64,000 bases of DNA, taken from the sequence record MW269952.1; one strand, given 5' to 3'. Positions 9,410-60,311 of the stretch are shown here, one piece after another (within the stretch, counting starts at the first letter, position 1; each line of letters starts with the position of its first letter). Origin of the DNA: Escherichia phage P479. The position numbers and the translations under genes are program-made. The notes under the pieces were generated by a model. That model searched no databases, had not been told where the DNA came from, and saw nothing but the letters and a program-made list of their open reading frames with translations.

Positions 9410-11470
9410 ATGTCTGAACAATTAAATGAACTCTTTGACAAATATATCGAAGCCTTCGATTATCCTGTCATTAATATGAATCCGAAATACAAGGTCCCAC
9501 AGGTTTGGCAATTCGGTGTTCCTGGGACCAATTCTCTTATGGCCCGTTTGATGCAATTCACGGGCAAAGAAACAGTTAAACAATATAAACGCGGCGATGC
9601 AATTGCCGAGGTATTCCTGCTCTCCGGGACTTCACATGGCCATGCTGTTCCTCTGAAGGGTGGTCTAGGTGAAAAACCTCTTGATGCGATTAACCTGATT
9701 TTTGTTACAGTCTGGGAAAGCATTAAACTAGGCAAACCTGATGTAGTCTTGTTCCGTTTCCCATCCAAAAAGATGAAAGGGCAAGACCAAGCTGTTATTC
9801 GTATTATGAATCGACTGATTCAAATGAAAACCAGCGGGCGTTATCATGTTCTTCCAAATGCTTCTGGTCTCGGTAAAAAGAACGCATACGTAATTATGTA
9901 CAAAAAGGGTGTTGACCTGCTTTCGGTTGATGGTATGCCACCAGTCCCTGAGAAATATCAAAAAGTTGAAACTAAAGTTGGCGATGTATTCACCAATAAA
10001 GATACAGGTGCACAAGTCTCCAAACAAGAAATCGCAGCCGAAGTTCTGATTGACGCAGCAAACAAAAAGACCGATGCTGCTGTTGCCCAGAAAACTAAAA
10101 TAAGTCGCCGAGCTATTGCACAAGCCCAGTATGCTCCAAGTGATTCCGTGCCCGATGGCTGGGACGAAATTGATGCAGAAGCTGCTAAGTTTAGTCGACC
10201 GGCTACGGCAGAACTTATCGATGATTATGAAGAACTGGAAATTTTTGTTCGACCTTCCGAAACGAATACTATGGCTCGTATGCGCGCAGCAGATGAGGCT
10301 ATGCGAGCAAATGGTGTTTGGAAAGAAGAAATTCGTGTTGAAGACTCTGACCCAATTTTTAACCGTATGCATCGTGAACTTAAACGTGCCCCTGTTGGCA
10401 GTATGAAGCAGATGCAGATTTTTGCCGAATCATGTGCCGAGATTCTTAACCTTCGCAAAGCCGCATTTATCGAAAGAAAAATGAATGATGCTCCTCCTAA
10501 CCTGGATGCAGCCACTTATGCAGCCTCGCTCTGGGAAAAAGAATACACAAGCGCCATTCGTGTTGCAGTTAAAGACTTTGCCGAAGAAGCATCAGAAAAT
10601 ACTCTTAATTTCACAGCAGGATATACTGACAACCGTTTCCATTATGGCCAGCGAGAAGCAATTGCAGATTATTGTGGAGCAAACTATGCCGATATTAATA
10701 ATTATTTGATGGGCAAATATTATGAAGAAGAAGCTGAATTCCTAAATCTAGACAGAGTTGTCGAAACAATTAAGGAATTGGATTCGGCCTTTGAAATTGG
10801 ACATAAGTTGCCGCCTAATACAACTCTTTGGCGTGGTCAATATTTAAACGTTCCTACATTTGATAAAATTAAGAAATCTAAATTATTTTATTTCAGGAAC
10901 TATGTATCAACGTCGTTTAAACCGATTATCTTTGGTGGCTGGGTGGCGAACGTTGCTATGGCTGCAGTTCATCAGGACTATCGTGATGGGACATCTTTCC
11001 AGGCTGATGACGAAATTGTTTTACCAGATATGCCAGCTGTACGCCGCGACCATGTAATGATGCATGTTGGTTGGAAAATTTCTGGGGCGGACTTAATTAA
11101 CGTAATTGTTCCTGGGGAATTGTCAAGCAACCCGTCCGAGCAGGAAGTTATTCTTCCTCGTGGGACTGTAGTTAAGATTACCAAAATTACTGATGCTTCG
11201 TATCAAGGAAACGCGAACGTCAAAATGCTGGAAGCTGATATCCAGACTACGGACCAACTGGATGAAAATGCAGTTATCTATGATGGTGATGTGTTGATGG
11301 AAACTGGTGAGCTTGTCGTTTATCAGGGCGAGGAATCAGAAGAGCCAGTAGAATCTGTTGACTTTGCATCGTTTGCATCCTCTGGGGTGACGAAGAAAGT
11401 CAATCAAGGTCTTGGTATTCTTGCTAGTTGTATTAATTTGGAAGCTATTCCTCCTAAATTCCTTTCGTAG
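9410..11470 (+). CDS. alt: Alt-like ADP-ribosyltransferase (virion-packaged)
   Basis: 686 aa (T4 Alt about 680 aa); position adjacent to gene 30 as in T4; C-terminal block ...NVVLPGELSSNPSEQEVILPRGTVVKITKITDASY... resembles recalled T4 Alt. Confidence 0.75.
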   Translation: MSEQLNELFDKYIEAFDYPVINMNPKYKVPQVWQFGVPGTNSLMARLMQFTGKETVKQYKRGDAIAEVFLLSGTSHGHAVPLKGGLGEKPLDAINLIFVTVWESIKLGKPDVVLFRFPSKKMKGQDQAVIRIMNRLIQMKTSGRYHVLPNASGLGKKNAYVIMYKKGVDLLSVDGMPPVPEKYQKVETKVGDVFTNKDTGAQVSKQEIAAEVLIDAANKKTDAAVAQKTKISRRAIAQAQYAPSDSVPDGWDEIDAEAAKFSRPATAELIDDYEELEIFVRPSETNTMARMRAADEAMRANGVWKEEIRVEDSDPIFNRMHRELKRAPVGSMKQMQIFAESCAEILNLRKAAFIERKMNDAPPNLDAATYAASLWEKEYTSAIRVAVKDFAEEASENTLNFTAGYTDNRFHYGQREAIADYCGANYADINNYLMGKYYEEEAEFLNLDRVVETIKELDSAFEIGHKLPPNTTLWRGQYLNVPTFDKIKKSKLFYFRNYVSTSFKPIIFGGWVANVAMAAVHQDYRDGTSFQADDEIVLPDMPAVRRDHVMMHVGWKISGADLINVIVPGELSSNPSEQEVILPRGTVVKITKITDASYQGNANVKMLEADIQTTDQLDENAVIYDGDVLMETGELVVYQGEESEEPVESVDFASFASSGVTKKVNQGLGILASCINLEAIPPKFLS

Positions 11471-19109: not shown

Positions 19110-19146
19110 TGCTTTAATTTTATGGCTGTATAATGGTTCTAGACCC
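19107..19146 (+). promoter_or_regulatory. MotA-box middle promoter upstream of uvsY (equivalent of T4 P_uvsY)
   Basis: aTGCTTTA box 19109-19116, TATAAT 19129-19134, conserved GGTTCTAGACCC 19135-19146; the same position as the classical T4 uvsY middle promoter. Confidence 0.6.
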
Positions 19147-25150: not shown

Positions 25151-25190
25151 TTTTGCTTCAAATAAAAATGCGGTATAATGGTTCTAGACC
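25151..25190 (+). promoter_or_regulatory. MotA-box middle promoter upstream of rnlB
   Basis: TTTGCTTCA box 25151-25159, TATAAT 25173-25178, conserved GGTTCTAGACCCC 25179-25191. Confidence 0.55.
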
Positions 25191-33358: not shown

Positions 33359-33406
33359 TAGAGTCTCCGAAGTTTGGGAAATGAGGCCGAAGCCTCATAA
33401 TAACTT

Positions 33407-33414
33407 TATTTATA
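33407..33414 (-). promoter_or_regulatory. T4-type late promoter for gene 20
   Basis: TATAAATA on -, 49 nt upstream of the gene 20 ATG. Confidence 0.5.
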
Positions 33415-33415
33415 C

Positions 33416-33907
33416 TTATTCCCACCAGTCAATTGCGAACGTTGCTTCGAACGTTTCAATTTCGTTGTTTGAATCCCAATCCATCTGGACTTCCCCAACG
33501 TTGGTTGGCCACATGCCGGTAATAACAACTTCTTTCGTAATGGTCTTGCCATCACGATGGAACTGGCGGACAGTAGCGGTTTTCTTATAATCAGCAGGAG
33601 CTGCACCGGTGATTTCGTTAGTCATACCGTGACACAGATTTTGCCAATCAACAATTGCTTGACGAACTTTATGAGCATCGTCGTTATAAATCGTAATAGT
33701 CCAGTCATCAAATGTACGGTCGCCCGCAACGTTGATTTTACGGTTCATGTAACCGACAGGAACTTTTTCTACAATGCCTGCAGGCATCGGGGCTGCTTTA
33801 CAATGGAAAGCAAAGTTTTTGCCCAGGAATGGGATTTCGACTTCGAACAGGTTAGGGCGAGCAAAGTCGCCGGATTCGAAAGCGCGTGTGATATCGGTCA
33901 ACTCCAT
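33416..33907 (-). CDS. 19: tail tube protein gp19
   Basis: Start placed at the internal ATG (MELTDITRAFESGDFARPNLFEVEIP...), matching the recalled T4 gp19 N-terminus; 163 aa. Confidence 0.85.
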   Translation of the reverse strand: MELTDITRAFESGDFARPNLFEVEIPFLGKNFAFHCKAAPMPAGIVEKVPVGYMNRKINVAGDRTFDDWTITIYNDDAHKVRQAIVDWQNLCHGMTNEITGAAPADYKKTATVRQFHRDGKTITKEVVITGMWPTNVGEVQMDWDSNNEIETFEATFAIDWWE

Positions 33908-33959
33908 TAAGGAATCCTCTTTATAGACACAGGTTGCGTGAACGCGTCCCTGATGCATG

Positions 33960-33967
33960 TATTTATA
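33960..33967 (-). promoter_or_regulatory. T4-type late promoter for gene 19
   Basis: TATAAATA on -, 53 nt upstream of the gene 19 ATG. Confidence 0.55.
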
Positions 33968-34024
33968 CTAGGTAATATGATTCATCATCTCAAGATAATG
34001 GCTTCCCAGAATCAACCACAGGAG

Positions 34025-34075
34025 CCCGTAGAACCGATTATGCTTTTATTTATAACACTGTATAATGGTTCTACG
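34025..34075 (+). promoter_or_regulatory. middle-promoter-like cassette (TGCTTTTA box, TATAAT, GGTTCTA) enclosed by a perfect 10-bp inverted repeat, oriented antisense to gene 18
   Basis: Inverted repeat ccgtagaacc (34025-34034) / ggttctacgg (34066-34075); box 34040-34047; TATAAT 34060-34065. The - strand also carries TATAAATA at 34046-34053. Confidence 0.45.
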
Positions 34076-34107
34076 GTTTCTAACTGATTAATTCTAAGCG
34101 ATGATAA

Positions 34108-36087
34108 TTATTGTGGCCCAATCAGCTCATCGAAATTAGCACCGGTGCTTGTTGCTACGAAATTAAGCGTGATGTAGTTGATGCTGCGCGCCGGTTTGAA
34201 ATAAATGCTAGCAACAAACTCATTTCGGTCTATGACCGACGGGGTGTTGTTAGTAGTATCACAAACCACACGACCTTCATAAATGCCACCGAGCGCACGA
34301 ATACCATCCAAGTATTGAGAAGTTTCCATACGGAATGATGCACGAGTGAAGTTATCGTTAAGCTCAAACAGTTTATATTTGGATGCGTCACCGATATTTT
34401 TCTTCAGCATATTCGTAAGACGGCGAACGTTGATATGGTCCATCGGAGATGGAACTTTAGTTGCAGTCTTATCACCATACAGAACAAAACCATCACCACC
34501 TGCGAAACCAACAACCGGGTTGATAGCTTCCTGATACATGCGGTCACGTTGGGTCTGACGTGGTTCAACAGCCAATTTCAGAACGTTCAGAATCTGACCA
34601 CGATTATAACCTGCCGGAGACATCCAAGGCTGAGAAACATCATCAGTACGAGCACACAGTCCAGCCATATCAGCTGCCAGAGGAACCCAACGGTTAACGT
34701 CGTTATATTTATCATACTGATATTTATAGTTGCCATCAATCGCTGCATAAGTTGTGCTGATATTCATATTATCAGTATCAAATGCACCAGCACCTGTACG
34801 CCAGTCAATCAGGTTATCCACTGCACGGGTCAGAGGAACGTTAACCAACAGACCTTTCGGCGGGGAAATGAATGCCAAGCAATCCTGACGTTCGTCAGCA
34901 ATAGAAACTACGTGCTTCTGAACAGTGGAAGCGGTCGCATCACCTTCACCAGCACAAGCACCAGCGATAAGCAGGTTGATATGCAGAGCTTCACGGTCAG
35001 CGAACAGGTCCCAACCTTGCATCAAATCACCAGCGGTAATCTTATCGTTTGCAGAAATACCGCCAGACAGATTGATGATACCACTGAAGCCTACAGGCCA
35101 GTTGCGAGATGTTGCATAGATGTAGTTGGAAGTACCTTTTGCAAAGTAGTCATCCAGGTAAATGTTATTACCATAAACATCTTTTTCGCCCTGCTTAGTA
35201 GACAAAACAACGTTTTCGACGATTGCACCATCGCGGCGAACGATAATAGCATATTGGTTTTCGGTCTGAGGACCATAGTTAAACACCGCACGAGCTATAG
35301 AAGCGCGGGAACCACCACCAGGGAAAATATCCAGATTTGCAGTTGCGCCTTTTTCAAATTCAGCTTTGGATACGATTTCAACTTCAAGAGTCGAACCAAT
35401 TTCACCAGGATAAAGAGCAACAACACCCGGCATTGCATATTTTGCCAATGATGCCTGGAATTCCAGAGAAGTAATTGCTTCTTCACTGTTTTCTGCTTCA
35501 GTCAACAGAATGCCAGAATCGGTAACAATTTTTCCGACAGTGATGGTACCAGATACACCGGAAGAAGTGGTCGTAACTTCTGCAGTCCATGCACTGCCCA
35601 AATTAGGATACTGATTAATAGTTTTAGCAAATGCAATAATCTTATTGGTAGGAATAAAGATTGCCAGAATTTTACCATCAACATCGACCTTGGTCACACG
35701 GCCAGCTGGTTCAACAACAGTCTGGTTGTGTTTAACCTGAATAACATCACCGACAGCATAGTTTGTACCAGCAGTTACGATGGTAGTTTCAATATTGCCA
35801 GCAATAGGGGATGCGTTTTTAGCTTCGTCACGGTTAACAACACGTACAGTACGGAGGTCATTACCATATTGCAGGAAGTTCATCCCACTCATAAAGTAAT
35901 CTGCTGTTTCATTATTCGGACCACCAAACAAATCAACAAGTTCAACTTCGTTTGTAATCTGAGTTACCTGGAAAGCTGGGCCCCACTGGAATTTACCAAC
36001 CAGCGCCGCACGACCCGTCGCGTTACGAACAACAGTGCTTTGGACCGTTGTTTCTTTGAGCTCAATGCCCGGGGATAATAAAGCCAT
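34108..36087 (-). CDS. 18: tail sheath protein gp18
   Basis: 659 aa (T4 gp18 659 aa); synteny. Confidence 0.9.
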   Translation of the reverse strand: MALLSPGIELKETTVQSTVVRNATGRAALVGKFQWGPAFQVTQITNEVELVDLFGGPNNETADYFMSGMNFLQYGNDLRTVRVVNRDEAKNASPIAGNIETTIVTAGTNYAVGDVIQVKHNQTVVEPAGRVTKVDVDGKILAIFIPTNKIIAFAKTINQYPNLGSAWTAEVTTTSSGVSGTITVGKIVTDSGILLTEAENSEEAITSLEFQASLAKYAMPGVVALYPGEIGSTLEVEIVSKAEFEKGATANLDIFPGGGSRASIARAVFNYGPQTENQYAIIVRRDGAIVENVVLSTKQGEKDVYGNNIYLDDYFAKGTSNYIYATSRNWPVGFSGIINLSGGISANDKITAGDLMQGWDLFADREALHINLLIAGACAGEGDATASTVQKHVVSIADERQDCLAFISPPKGLLVNVPLTRAVDNLIDWRTGAGAFDTDNMNISTTYAAIDGNYKYQYDKYNDVNRWVPLAADMAGLCARTDDVSQPWMSPAGYNRGQILNVLKLAVEPRQTQRDRMYQEAINPVVGFAGGDGFVLYGDKTATKVPSPMDHINVRRLTNMLKKNIGDASKYKLFELNDNFTRASFRMETSQYLDGIRALGGIYEGRVVCDTTNNTPSVIDRNEFVASIYFKPARSINYITLNFVATSTGANFDELIGPQ

Positions 36088-57646: not shown

Positions 57647-58099
57647 ATGGCATACTCCGGGAAATGGCAACCTAAAAACGTTGCAAAGTACAAAGGAGAC
57701 TGGAAGAAAATTACCTACAGGTCAAACTGGGAAAAATTTGTATTTAACTGGTTGGATAATCATCCAGATGTGGTGCAATGGGGGTCAGAGACCGTTATCA
57801 TTCCATATTTTAGTAATGCGGATGGTAAAAAACGCAGGTATTACATGGATATGTGGGTAAAATTTTCAAATGGTCAACAATTTTTCTTTGAGGTTAAACC
57901 CAAAAAGGAAACAAGACCTCCAGCAAAACCAGTTAATACGACCGCTGCGAGCAAGAAGAGATTTATGAACGAAATGTATGTTTGGGCTGTTAATTCGGAT
58001 AAATGGAAAGCCGCTCAAGCTGTAGCTGATAAAATGGGCATCCAATTTAGATTGATTACTGAAGATGCACTTAGGAAAATGGGTTATAAGGGTTTATAA
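57647..58099 (+). CDS. 4: head completion protein gp4
   Basis: 150 aa; MAYSGKWQPKNVAKYKGDWKKITYRSNWEKF... matches recalled T4 gp4; divergent from gene 53 as in T4. Confidence 0.75.
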   Translation: MAYSGKWQPKNVAKYKGDWKKITYRSNWEKFVFNWLDNHPDVVQWGSETVIIPYFSNADGKKRRYYMDMWVKFSNGQQFFFEVKPKKETRPPAKPVNTTAASKKRFMNEMYVWAVNSDKWKAAQAVADKMGIQFRLITEDALRKMGYKGL

Positions 58100-58746
58100 T
58101 GTATACGGTATATCAAATAACAAATAAAATTAATAACAAAATTTACATCGGTGTGCACAAAACCGACAATATCGATGACAAGTATATGGGCACAGGGAAA
58201 TTAATATTAAAAGCTCATAAAAAATATGGTATTGAAAATTTTCAAAAGGATATTTTATTTGTTTTTGATTCCATCAATGAATCAGAGAACGAAAATTTAG
58301 CCTTTGCTAAAGAGGCTGATTTAGTCGACCAAGAATTTGTTAATCGGCCCGACACGTACAACATTGATTTGGGTGGTAGAGGCGGTCGCGGCCGCTCCGC
58401 TTCTGTTAGAAAACGTATTGGTGATGCCCAGCGAGGAAAACCTGGTAAAAAACCATCAAAAGAATCTCGTTTAAAAATGAGTTTGGCACACAAGGGTAAA
58501 AAATTATCCGAAGAACATAAGATAAAAATTGGCAATGCTGGCCGTGGTAAAAAGCGTCCTGAAAGTGCAAATGAAGCGGTTAGACAACATTTATTAGGGG
58601 TTCCTCGTAAAGAAGAACATAAAAATAATATGAGAATTGGTTTTCTAAATACACCTACCAAAATATGTCCACACTGTGGATTAGAATGCAAACCAGCCCC
58701 ATTTAAAAGATGGCATGGCGATAATTGCAAAGCGAGGAAAGGATGA
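58099..58746 (+). CDS. GIY-YIG homing endonuclease (Seg-like) inserted between genes 4 and 2
   Basis: N-terminus [19 protein letters not shown] is a GIY-YIG motif; NUMOD3-like repeats; C-terminal CPHCG...HGDNC zinc-finger-like; overlaps the gene 4 stop and gene 2 start. Confidence 0.75.
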
Positions 58747-59570
58747 GTATTTTTACATTTATCAATGAATCTGCAGATAAACCAGGTCCGAAACCCAGTA
58801 AATCAGAACAACAATGGGTTGAAATAGGGGTTGAATTTTATACAGCAAAAGAAAAGGGAATGACCTCGAAGAAGTTTGCTGAAGAGAAAGGAATCAACTA
58901 TTCGACCTTTACCAAAAGCATGTCAAGATATCATTCGAGAATTCAGACTGCTTATAAAGTATCCAAGCTCAAAAAGAAACCTGCCGGTAAACTTACGAAG
59001 GCTGAACGTCAGCTGATAATGGTGAATAGCTTTAGAAAGAGCATAAGAGATAAGATTGCTAACGAAGGCGCTGCAAGCAACACCAAATCTGCCAGATGGT
59101 TCGCTGAGACAATTAAGAAATCAGTTCGTGGTCACGTAACGGCTAAACCTCAACCGGGTAAGATTTATGCTTATATCTATGATGCAAAGCATAAGGATAC
59201 TCTTCCGTACTGGGATAAATATCCGTTAATCATTTATCTTGGGCTAGGTAAGCACAATTTGATGTATGGTTTGAACTTGCACTATATTCCACCGAAGGCA
59301 CGTCAAGAGTTCCTTGAGGAACTTCTTAAGCAATATGCTAATACTCCTACGATTACGAACAAGACTCATCTGAAGATTGATTGGTCAAAGGTGAAGGGAT
59401 TTAAAGGGGCTGACCAGATGATTAAAGCATATATACCTGGCAATATAAAAGGTACTATTACTGAAATCAAGCCCAGCGACTGGGCAAACGTTGTATTACT
59501 CCCCCTTCAGCAGTTTTTTTCAAAAGGCAAAAGATTTTCTTCACAGAAAGTATGGAGAAATTCACTTTGA
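58743..59570 (+). CDS. 2: DNA end protector protein gp2
   Basis: About 275 aa from the internal ATG (T4 gp2 274 aa); synteny 4-2-3-1. Confidence 0.75.
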
Positions 59571-60226
59571 ATTATCAGTTTATATATTCATCGTTAATTG
59601 AAAGGGCCCGTAACAGGGCCCTGATTTCATATAAAGAATCTCATCACATCATTCCGAAATGTATGGGCGGTTCAAATGCTCCGGATAACCTAGTCGATTT
59701 GACTCCCGAAGAACATTATGTAGCCCATCAACTATTGGTTAAAATATATCCTACAAATCCAGGTTTAAGTTTTGCTGCCACATCTATGAGCCAGTCAAGC
59801 AAGTATTTGAAACGCAATAATAAATTATTTGGCTGGTTAAGACGCAGACACGCTGACAATATTTCTAAAAGCCAAACCGGTAAAGTTTACTTTAATAATG
59901 GTGTCAAATCGATAAAACTATTTCCATGGGAAGATGTTCCGGATGGGTTTGTCAAAGGAAGACATTACAGTCCAACCAAGGGTACAAAACATTCTCGCAA
60001 TAATGGACATTTTAAAAATAAAGAGATTCAGGATGAATTGAGAAAGCGCCGGTGGGAAAAAGATAGGCAAGAAATGTGTAAAAACTTCGGAGTTGATACC
60101 ATCGAGCAAGCTCGAGAGTTGGTCCTAGCATATAAAAAGGAATTGCATCCTCGATACTGGGTAAAGCCAATGTTGGAACGTTATCCGTTTATGACTAAGC
60201 TAAGACTTAACACATTAATAAAATAA
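59552..60226 (+). CDS. HNH-family homing endonuclease (Mob-like) inserted between genes 2 and 3
   Basis: [30 protein letters not shown] motif; paralogous to 20422-21207 and to the partial gene at 1-118; overlaps the gene 2 3' end. Confidence 0.7.
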
Positions 60227-60261
60227 TCTATTATCGGTCAGTGTTATTGGTATGGACAAAA

Positions 60262-60298
60262 GGTCTAGAACCATTATAACACTGATTGTTTTAAAGCA
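60262..60298 (-). promoter_or_regulatory. middle-promoter-like element on - strand (TGCTTTA box, TATAAT, GGTTCTAGACC), antisense to the upstream HNH gene
   Basis: Reverse complement reads tttgctttaaaacaatcagtgtTATAATggttctagacc, with the same box-to-TATAAT spacing as the other family members. Confidence 0.4.
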
Positions 60299-60311
60299 AA
60301 CAAGGCGCACT

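What the first reader, a model, noticed from the sequence alone, without database searches (positions are those of the whole stretch)
34025..34075. Promoter-like cassette enclosed by a perfect 10-bp inverted repeat between tail tube gene 19 and tail sheath gene 18, pointing antisense to gene 18
Seen: ccgtagaacc (34025-34034) and ggttctacgg (34066-34075) are exact reverse complements and bracket the TGCTTTTA box and TATAAT of a family member. The element is oriented rightwards, into the 3' end of the leftward-transcribed gene 18. The same stretch carries TATAAATA on the - strand (34046-34053) in addition to the late promoter at 33960-33967. Inference: this could be an antisense promoter modulating sheath expression, a hairpin-forming recombination or insertion footprint, or a bifunctional early/late control region.
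Basis: seen in the sequence. Interest (0 to 1): 0.6.

Follow-up and report, generated by a model that had tools for sequence, protein, structure and literature searches.

The report
Two-way promoter inside an intergenic hairpin
A 51-base hairpin between the tail-sheath and tail-tube genes of a T4-like phage holds a middle-stage promoter pointing back into the sheath gene and a late promoter pointing on to the tube gene; it is a conserved variant of known promoter/stem-loop cassettes, and what the backward transcript does is untested.

Summary
The window is a Gaprivervirus (VR7/VR20/SP18 group). On the + strand the arms enclose a MotA-type middle promoter: Mot box TGCTTTT, 13-bp spacer, TATAAT, then the start block GGTTCTA. 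That block is shared with the promoters at the uvsY and rnlB positions. On the - strand the loop holds a late promoter, TATAAATA (34054-34047). Among seven relatives the arms and all three promoter boxes never vary, while 20/30 and 20/35 flanking columns do. The unit is single-copy and is not a 51-bp insertion. Its promoter core is present at the same site in VR26 and, more diverged, in Dhakavirus (JS98); Klebsiella Marfavirus has a comparable antisense promoter there. Only the left arm is an 11-12 nt indel. A stem-loop after gene 18 is found in most T4-like phages compared. A sister cassette sits between genes 2 and 3 (60238-60298), and its antisense promoter is conserved as far as T4. Mobile 19.1 ORFs insert on either side of the cassette. 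Best reading: a compact middle/late two-way signal inside the junction hairpin, closest to PeSL/PmSL cassettes and to T4 P34i. The role of the antisense RNA is inferred only.

The parts
34026..34035 (.). Left arm of the inverted repeat (CCGTAGAACC). It sits just upstream of the Mot box and is absent from VR26 and JS98, where it appears as an 11-12 nt indel.
   Evidence: 0/10 variable columns in 7 relatives
34067..34076 (.). Right arm (GGTTCTACGG). It is also the discriminator, predicted start site and first transcribed bases of the + strand promoter, and it derives from the family start block GGTTCTAGACC.
   Evidence: 0/10 variable
34037..34043 (.). Inner stem, 5' side (ATTATGC). It pairs with 34060-34066 (GTATAAT), so the Mot box half and the -10 hexamer are complementary to each other.
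   Evidence: MFE structures
34038..34047 (+). MotA box (TTA TGCTTTT; consensus (a/t)3 TGCTTtA), 13 bp upstream of the -10.
   Evidence: consensus and spacing from PMC2988021; 0/8 variable
34061..34066 (+). -10 hexamer TATAAT of the rightward middle-type promoter. The predicted start is about A34073, inside the right arm.
   Evidence: invariant in Gapri-, Dhaka- and Marfavirus copies
34047..34054 (-). Late promoter TATAAATA in the hairpin loop, pointing to gene 19. The predicted start is A at 34041, so its transcript carries only the 3' arm.
   Evidence: 22 matches vs 4.7 expected; all 13 in 26-57 kb on the - strand; -13/-6 position rule from PMC1524935
33960..33967 (-). Proximal late promoter TATAAATA for gene 19. 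Its 15-nt context (33953-33967) is 87% identical to that of the loop copy (34040-34054).
   Evidence: (repeat D1)
34021..34025 (+). AGGAG, conserved in all 8 Gaprivervirus sequences immediately left of the cassette. Role unknown.
34108..36087 (-). Gene 18 (tail sheath). Its 3' end faces the + strand promoter.
33416..33907 (-). Gene 19 (tail tube).
60238..60298 (-). Sister cassette in the gene 2 (or homing endonuclease) / gene 3 spacer. It is a family promoter on the - strand: Mot box 60298-60292, TATAAT 60278-60273, GGTTCTAGACC. It lies inside a perfect 10-bp inverted repeat, 60238-60247 / 60276-60285, and fires into the 3' end of the upstream ORF.
19110..19145 (+). Family member in sense orientation at the position of T4 PuvsY (= oriF). 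TGCTTTA, 12-bp spacer, TATAATGGTTCTAGACC.
25154..25190 (+). Family member in sense orientation at the position of T4 PrnlB. TGCTTCA, 13-bp spacer, TATAATGGTTCTAGACC.

Best explanation
The 51-bp unit is a compact two-way transcription signal built into the stem-loop that separates the sheath and tube genes.

Read rightwards, it is a MotA/AsiA-dependent middle promoter of the phage's own family. It starts an untranslated RNA at about 34073, antisense to the 3' end of gene 18 (or to the 19.1 ORF in phages that carry it).

Read leftwards, its loop holds a second late promoter for gene 19.

The 10-bp arms and the inner 5-7 pairs can pair only in RNAs that read through the whole unit. The main such RNA is the long late 18-to-19 message. 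In it they supply the junction stem-loop that most T4-like phages have after gene 18, acting as a 3'-end stabiliser or punctuation mark. Transcripts that start inside the unit carry one arm only and stay open.

Shown here: the motifs, their family membership, the fold and the conservation pattern. Inferred: that both promoters fire, and that the middle-time antisense RNA damps premature or leaky expression of gene 18 or 19.1 ('anti-late' RNA).
For: Promoter identity:
- The Mot box, 13-bp spacer and TATAAT match the T4 rule.
- The -10 plus start block matches 13/14 bases of three exact copies. Two of these sit where T4 has the verified MotA promoters PuvsY and PrnlB.
- There is no -35 hexamer.
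- VR20 encodes motA and asiA.

Conservation:
- Arms 0/10 and 0/10, Mot box 0/8, late box 0/8 and -10 0/6 variable columns, against 20/30 and 20/35 in the flanks.
- 31 of 33 Gaprivervirus records keep the full unit.
- The core persists without arms in VR26 and JS98.
- Marfavirus has a Mot-like box and TATAAT inside a different hairpin at the same site.

Hairpin:
- Fold z is -5.5 and -6.6.
- A stem-loop after gene 18 is present in most of the 79 T4-like loci and in T4.
- VR26, which lacks the arms, has a separate GC hairpin at the gene 18 stop.

Late promoter: TATAAATA is 4.7-fold enriched and strand-correct. T4 also has two copies in this spacer.

Sister case: the 2/3 spacer has the same design. 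In T4, Dhakavirus and Gaprivervirus its Mot box, -10 and start block are invariant and its spacer varies freely.

Precedents: T4 P34i is an antisense middle promoter inside a late gene. Phage PAK_P3 makes early antisense RNAs over its structural genes (PMC4933390).
Against: - No expression data exist for this genus, so neither start site is mapped.
- The Mot box ends in T instead of A, and JS98 has CTG in place of the usually conserved CTT.
- The arms never vary within the genus, so there is no covariation. Across genera the stems are not homologous, so 'hairpin kept by selection' rests on recurrence, not on compensatory pairs.
- Hairpins and promoters both crowd into short spacers, so their overlap could be incidental.
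- The hairpin is not followed by a U-run on the late-sense strand, and the simple scan does not call it a terminator.
- Sheath and tube are needed in equal amounts (own knowledge), so there is no obvious need to regulate gene 18 separately.
- T4 manages without the 18/19 antisense promoter.
Confidence: 0.5

Rival explanations
1. The rightward promoter is the core of an R-loop replication origin of the T4 oriF/oriG type. Its transcript stays hybridised downstream and primes leading-strand synthesis. The antisense orientation is then irrelevant to gene 18.
For: - In T4, oriG is exactly this: a MotA middle promoter (P34i) inside late gene 34, firing antisense (PMC3016281).
- VR20 keeps P34i.
- The closest relatives of the 18/19 promoter include the uvsY promoter, which is oriF in T4.
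- No downstream ORF was found on the + strand before about 57.6 kb.
- T4 origins coincide with recombination hot spots (a title cited), and this cassette borders indel sites.
Against: - The 50 nt downstream of the start are not unusually easy to melt: 21st percentile, against 3.6% for the uvsY-type promoter. T4 ori34 is also unremarkable in its first 50 nt, so this test is weak.
- The rnlB-type family member is an ordinary gene promoter, so family membership does not imply origin function.
- No replication data exist.
Confidence: 0.17
2. It is chiefly a PeSL/PmSL-type recombination linker. On this view the conserved promoter/stem-loop module persists because it serves as the homology patch through which neighbouring ORFs (19.1) are swapped. 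Its transcription signals are secondary.
For: - PeSL and PmSL cassettes are promoter plus stem-loop composites found next to indels. The stem-loop may overlap the -35 or -10 (PMC2839356; PMC4122927).
- 19.1-type ORFs lie on the gene 18 side in VR7 and L021, and on the gene 19 side in VR26, L018 and L016.
- The cassette is a conserved island between highly variable flanks.
Against: - The 60-nt unit is single-copy per genome.
- Family members share only about 17-35 nt.
- No pair of cassettes flanks the 19.1 ORF, so the mini-circle route does not apply.
- The 19.1 proteins look like free-standing endonucleases with their own means of spreading (motif only).
- The promoter drives no ORF, unlike PeSLs.
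Confidence: 0.15
3. The + strand 'promoter' is a by-product. The conserved bases serve only the late promoter, its start region and the hairpin, and TGCTTTT/TATAAT is silent.
For: - The Mot box overlaps the start region of the loop late promoter.
- That region is duplicated from the proximal late promoter (repeat D1).
- TATAAT lies in the stem.
- The Mot box is imperfect.
Against: - The same TATAATGGTTCTA block occurs at promoters of unrelated genes.
- JS98 and Marfa keep TATAAT and a Mot-like box at this site without any TATAAATA in that stretch.
- VR26 keeps the core without the hairpin.
Confidence: 0.1
4. The inverted repeat is a protein site: the target or operator of the 19.1 endonuclease, or of another DNA-binding protein.
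For: - It is a perfect palindromic pair of arms next to both 19.1 insertion sites.
- I-TevI is known to bind an operator over its own late promoter (PMC2988022).
Against: - The arms are identical in phages with and without 19.1, whereas homing targets are usually altered in carriers.
- A 31-bp spacing is long for a dimeric site.
- VR26, JS98 and Marfa have different arms or none.
Confidence: 0.05

Closest known systems
PeSL / PmSL cassettes of T4-type phages (Arbiol et al. 2010, PMC2839356; Comeau et al. 2014, PMC4122927)
   Same: It is an intergenic composite of a promoter and a stem-loop. The PmSL subtype uses a TGCTT Mot box plus a -10. The stem-loop may overlap the promoter boxes. Such cassettes are found next to ORF insertions and deletions between close relatives.
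   Different: Here the arms bracket the entire promoter, and the promoter faces the 3' end of a late gene and drives no ORF (no SD or ATG). A late promoter sits in the loop on the other strand. There is no AT-rich upstream region. The unit is single-copy and lies in the conserved structural module.
T4 P34i / ori(34) (oriG)
   Same: It is a MotA-dependent middle promoter in a late-gene region, firing antisense with no ORF of its own. The -10 and start context is similar (TATAATGGTCCCAGAG against TATAATGGTTCTACGG).
   Different: P34i lies inside a coding sequence, has no enclosing hairpin and no late promoter on the other strand. Origin function is shown for T4 only.
T4 hairpins with an internal late promoter (genes e, soc, I-TevI, segB, mobE; PMC2988022)
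   Same: The late promoter lies inside a hairpin. Read-through transcripts therefore fold, while late transcripts that start inside cannot.
   Different: [quoted passage not shown] Here the arms hold no SD or start codon, and gene 19's SD lies about 100 nt further on.
T4's own 18/19 spacer
   Same: It has a stem-loop just after gene 18 plus two TATAAATA late promoters ahead of gene 19.
   Different: The T4 stem is a short GC hairpin (GGCCTG/CAGGCC) with the late promoter beside it, not in it. There is no antisense Mot box or -10.
Early antisense RNAs over structural genes in phage PAK_P3 (PMC4933390)
   Same: Antisense transcripts are made before the late period across late structural genes, and are proposed to block leaky expression.
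   Different: It is a different phage family, the evidence is RNA-seq, and the promoters are not defined. Here the promoter is defined by sequence but the RNA has not been seen.

Membership tests
MotA/AsiA-dependent middle promoter | Mot box (a/t)3TGCTTtA centred near -30 | tested here: met
   TTATGCTTTT at 34038-34047, 9/10 to the consensus with the last A replaced by T. Invariant in 8 Gaprivervirus sequences.
MotA/AsiA-dependent middle promoter | Excellent sigma-70 -10 (TAtaaT), 12 +/- 1 bp from the Mot box, with no -35 needed | tested here: met
   TATAAT at 34061-66 with a 13-bp spacer. No -35 match was found by the scan.
MotA/AsiA-dependent middle promoter | The phage encodes MotA and AsiA | tested here: met
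   Both are annotated in the close relative VR20. They lie outside this window.
MotA/AsiA-dependent middle promoter | MotA-dependent transcript start in vivo or in vitro | not testable with these tools
   No transcript data for Gaprivervirus were found in the library.
T4-type late promoter | TATAAATA at -13 to -6 on the sense strand upstream of a late gene | tested here: met
   34054-34047 on the - strand, 140 nt upstream of gene 19. The motif is found 22 times against 4.7 expected, and all copies in the late block are on the - strand.
PeSL / PmSL cassette | Intergenic promoter combined with a stable stem-loop in or next to it | tested here: met
   definition
PeSL / PmSL cassette | The promoter is followed by the SD and start codon of a downstream ORF that it expresses | tested here: not met
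   The + strand runs into the 3' end of gene 18. There is only a non-conserved 15-codon ORF.
PeSL / PmSL cassette | Many similar copies per genome, clustered in hyperplastic regions | tested here: not met
   The 60-nt unit occurs at one place per genome. The exact 17-mer start block occurs 3 times per genome. The location is the conserved tail module.
PeSL / PmSL cassette | Lies next to ORF indels between close relatives | tested here: met
   The 19.1 ORF is present or absent on either side of the cassette.
T4 oriF/oriG-type origin | [quoted passage not shown] | tested here: inconclusive
   The promoter is present. Downstream duplex stability is at the 21st percentile, and there is an AT-rich stretch at +8 to +40.
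T4 oriF/oriG-type origin | Supports autonomous replication or R-loop formation after infection | not testable with these tools
   This needs an experiment.
Intrinsic (rho-independent) terminator | GC-rich stem, short loop, then a U-run | tested here: not met
   It is not called by the scan. The loop is 16-31 nt. The tail is UUUCUAAC on the + strand and GCUCCUGU on the - strand.
RBS-sequestering hairpin with an internal late promoter (e / soc / I-TevI type) | One arm contains the SD or start codon of the downstream gene | tested here: not met
   The arms are CCGUAGAACC and GGUUCUACGG. Gene 19's SD is near 33915-33922.
Rfam RNA families | A match at or near the gathering score | tested here: not met
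   There was only a chance hit, E 0.56, elsewhere in the stretch.

The most novel reading that the evidence does not exclude
Antisense MotA-type promoters nested in or beside junction stem-loops between late structural genes form a conserved and so far undescribed class. One sits at 18/19 in Gapri-, Dhaka- and Marfavirus, another at 2/3 from T4 to Gaprivervirus. On this reading their short transcripts act on DNA rather than on mRNA, as extra R-loop origins or as loading points for the gp45 clamp. That would tie replication to activation of the adjacent late promoters.
Probability: 0.1. Interest if true: 0.75.

Novelty: new variant of a known kind. Interest (0 to 1): 0.4.

Why it matters
T4 is the reference system for timed phage transcription. 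Even so, the promoters and purpose of the RNA made early against late genes are poorly defined, and only two antisense promoters in late regions (ori34 and oriE) have an assigned role.

This cassette and its sister in the 2/3 spacer, which is also visible in T4 itself, give precise and mutable sites for testing. One can ask whether middle-time antisense transcription at late-gene junctions controls late-gene timing, primes replication, or only marks recombination boundaries.

It also shows three signals packed into about 50 bp by using both strands of one hairpin. That is useful for annotating the many T4-like genomes now being deposited.

Tried and rejected
- **Sigma-70 early promoter:** rejected. 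The scan finds no -35 on the + strand.
- **Intrinsic terminator:** not called.
- **Known RNA family:** none.
- **51-bp insertion or dispersed repeat:** rejected. There is one place per genome, and the core is shared with VR26 and JS98.
- **Inverted repeat significant on its own:** no. Two of the six perfect 10-bp repeats fall on the two antisense family promoters. But five or six of the six lie in intergenic DNA, where promoters also lie, so I do not treat that coincidence as strong.
- **Unwinding-element test for an origin:** inconclusive.
- **Coding role:** ORF 34040-34087 (15 codons, after a conserved AGGAG) is kept in VR26 but not in JS98, so I dropped it.
- **Covariation within the genus:** impossible, because the arms are invariant.
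- **Naming the 19.1 protein:** no hit in Pfam, NCBIfam or PDB by sequence; only PHROG 5104, 'unknown function'. The HNH-like reading rests on the motif LDHKVSI..N..N..W..NR.K shared by two 35%-identical versions. Structure prediction was not possible, because the protein is not encoded in this window.
- **Literature:** no transcript maps for Gapri- or Dhakavirus. 'Anti-late RNA' returned no paper, and the T4 omics paper does not mention antisense RNA.
- **Whole-genome census:** done only for the window plus 70 kb of VR20, not the full genome.

Full report
**Context.** The window is a Gaprivervirus, a T4-type coliphage of the VR7/VR20/SP18 group. The region 33400-34700 is 92-98% identical to about 30 such genomes. 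Gene 18 (tail sheath) is 34108-36087 and gene 19 (tail tube) is 33416-33907, both on the - strand. The finding lies in the 200-nt spacer between them.

**Observation.** They enclose TGCTTTTA (34041-48) and TATAAT (34061-66) on the + strand, and TATAAATA (34054-34047) on the - strand.

- A perfect 10-bp inverted repeat with a short loop is not rare. There are six in the window against 3.5 +/- 2.4 in shuffles.
- The stem continues inward, with ATTATGC pairing GTATAAT. The fold is far more stable than shuffles on both strands: z -5.5 and -6.6.

**What the + strand element is.** It fits the T4 middle-promoter rule, which is a Mot box (a/t)3TGCTTtA, 12 +/- 1 bp, then TAtaaT (PMC2988021). It has no -35.

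- It belongs to a family defined by a shared -10 plus start block, TATAATGGTTCTAGACC. There are three exact copies in the window (+19129, +25174, -60278). The copy in the finding matches the first 14 bases of this block (TATAATGGTTCTAG) with one mismatch. Looser copies occur at +604 and in VR20.
- The copies at 19129 and 25174 sit exactly where T4 has the verified MotA promoters PuvsY and PrnlB.
- VR20 encodes MotA and AsiA.
- The predicted start, A34073, lies inside the right arm. The primary transcript therefore lacks the left arm.
- No plausible ORF follows on the + strand, and the next + strand genes begin near 57.6 kb. The RNA would be antisense to gene 18.

**What the - strand element is.** TATAAATA occurs 22 times in the window against 4.7 expected. 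All 13 copies in the late block (26-57 kb) are on the late-sense strand. The loop copy is therefore very likely a real late promoter, a second one for gene 19 beside the proximal copy at 33967-33960.

- T4 also has two late promoters in this spacer.
- The two copies share a 15-nt context (repeat D1). So the Mot box on one strand overlaps the late start region on the other.
- The late start predicted at 34041 again gives a transcript with one arm only.

**Conservation.** Among seven arm-bearing Gapriviruses the functional pieces never vary:

| Segment | Variable columns |
|---|---|
| Left arm | 0/10 |
| Right arm | 0/10 |
| Mot box | 0/8 |
| Late box | 0/8 |
| -10 hexamer | 0/6 |
| Two short linkers | 2/7 and 2/6 |
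| Left flank | 20/30 |
| Right flank | 20/35 |

The 60-nt unit is single-copy and complete in 31 of 33 records.

- VR26 keeps the core (TTATGCTTTTATTTATAACACGGTATAATGGGTCTA) but lacks both arms. Window AGGAGCC|CGTAGAACCGA|TTATGC corresponds to VR26 AGGAGCC|TTATGC. VR26 instead has a separate GC hairpin at the gene 18 stop.
- JS98 and other Dhakaviruses keep GGTATAATGGTTTTAGG at the same site, without the left arm. There the promoter lies inside a different pair of arms, CCCAGGC/GCCTGGG.
- Klebsiella Marfaviruses have TTGCTAAA, 13 bp, TATAAT inside yet another stem, CCTGAAG/CTTCAGG, with z -6.0.
- Most of the 79 T4-like 18/19 spacers examined, and T4 itself, carry a stem-loop after gene 18, often touching a late promoter.

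So the promoter core and 'a hairpin here' are each recurrent. The particular 10-bp arms are specific to one genus.

**A sister element.** The -60278 family member lies in the spacer before gene 3 and points back into the upstream ORF. Here that ORF is a homing endonuclease gene; in VR20 it is gene 2.

- It too sits in a perfect 10-bp inverted repeat, 60238-47 / 60276-85, with z -5.3.
- Dhakavirus LHE83 keeps the promoter with different arms, CCCAGACAGT/ACTGGCTGGG.
- T4 has AATGCTTTA, 13 bp, TATAATGGGTCTAAG at the same place with a neighbouring hairpin.
- In the four-way alignment the Mot box, -10 and start block are invariant while the 13-bp spacer varies. That is the signature of a working promoter.
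- This T4 site is not among the 58 listed middle promoters.

**Mobile neighbours.** A 200-227 aa ORF, '19.1' (PHROG 5104, no other family hit), is present or absent in the 18/19 spacer of many lineages. The VR7 type lies between the cassette and gene 18. The VR26 type lies between the cassette and gene 19. Both arrangements recur in Dhakavirus. The cassette is thus the fixed boundary between two insertion sites, but it is resident whether or not the ORF is there.

**Mechanism.** The best-supported reading is a two-way middle/late signal nested in the junction hairpin.

- The arms pair only in read-through RNA, mainly the long late 18-19 message. There they replace the simple GC hairpin of other T4-likes.
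- Both internal promoters fire outward and escape the fold.
- The function of the antisense RNA is inferred. I favour damping of premature gene 18 or 19.1 expression, by analogy with PAK_P3.
- An oriG-like origin role is a serious rival. T4's known antisense promoters in late regions are origins, and the unwinding test was inconclusive.
- A PeSL-like linker role is also possible.

**Comparison and novelty.** The element works like a PmSL/PeSL cassette and like T4 P34i. It fails two defining PeSL features, since it drives no downstream ORF and is not multi-copy. It also differs from RBS-sequestering late hairpins, because the arms hold no SD. It is best filed as a new variant of known promoter/stem-loop composites. 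I found no description of it, or of the conserved 2/3 antisense promoter, in the papers searched. That search covers open-access text only.

Noticed in passing
window 60227-60311; T4 AF158101 about 75,955-76,060 (L095:656-761): The gene 2/gene 3 spacer carries an antisense MotA-type promoter that is conserved from T4 to Gaprivervirus. Mot box, -10 and start block are invariant and the spacer varies freely. It is not in the published list of T4 middle promoters.
   Followed up: partly
window 58099-58746 (+) and 59552-60226 (+): Two homing-endonuclease ORFs flank gene 2. The second is missing from most relatives (a 660-nt indel) and is inserted between gene 2 and the antisense promoter cassette.
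   Followed up: partly
L001:1204-1809 (VR7), L008:411-1094 (VR26), L016, L018, L021, L037, L043, L046: The 19.1-like ORFs (PHROG 5104, unknown function, HNH-like C-terminal motif) occupy two alternative sites on either side of the 18/19 cassette and occur patchily in several T4-like lineages. No Pfam, NCBIfam or PDB sequence match was found.
   Followed up: partly
window 19129-19145, 25174-25190, 60278-60262 (-); T4 L096 and L097: Eleven bases after the -10 (GGTTCTAGACC) are identical at three unrelated promoters. They resemble the start regions of T4 PuvsY/oriF (GAATCTAAGTCC) and P34i/oriG (GGTCCCAGAG). The reason for this conserved start block is unknown.
   Followed up: partly
L091:10950-11050 (VR20 10,950-11,050): A family-like promoter (ACGCTTTTA, then a spacer, then TATAATGGTTCTAAGG) lies on the + strand between srd and modA, antisense to both. 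A small stem-loop (TACACC/GGTGTG) lies just upstream, as in PmSLs.
   Followed up: no
L092:1636 (VR20 151,636, - strand): This is the exact homologue of T4 P34i/ori(34), 2.2 kb inside gene 34. It is conserved almost base for base between T4 and VR20.
   Followed up: partly
window 34021-34087 (+): A conserved AGGAG is followed by a 15-codon ORF (ATG at 34040, TGA at 34085-87). In VR26, which lacks the left arm, the AGGAG-to-ATG distance is 4 nt. The ORF is not kept in JS98.
   Followed up: partly
JS98 (L024) and Marfa (L041) 18/19 spacers vs window 34026-34035: JS98 (TTCTACG) and Marfa (CCTACGG) carry the arm sequence in direct orientation upstream of the Mot box, where the window has it inverted (CGTAGAA). 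This hints that the left arm arose by a small inversion or a templated change.
   Followed up: no
L042 and L080, 18/19 spacer: The post-gene-18 hairpin (GCCGATATA/TATATCGGC) contains TATTTATA. In the antisense direction it is followed by T5, making it look like a terminator with a late promoter inside it.
   Followed up: no
window, whole: TATAAATA occurs 22 times against 4.7 expected. All 13 copies between 26 and 57 kb are on the - strand, which maps the late transcription units cleanly.
   Followed up: yes
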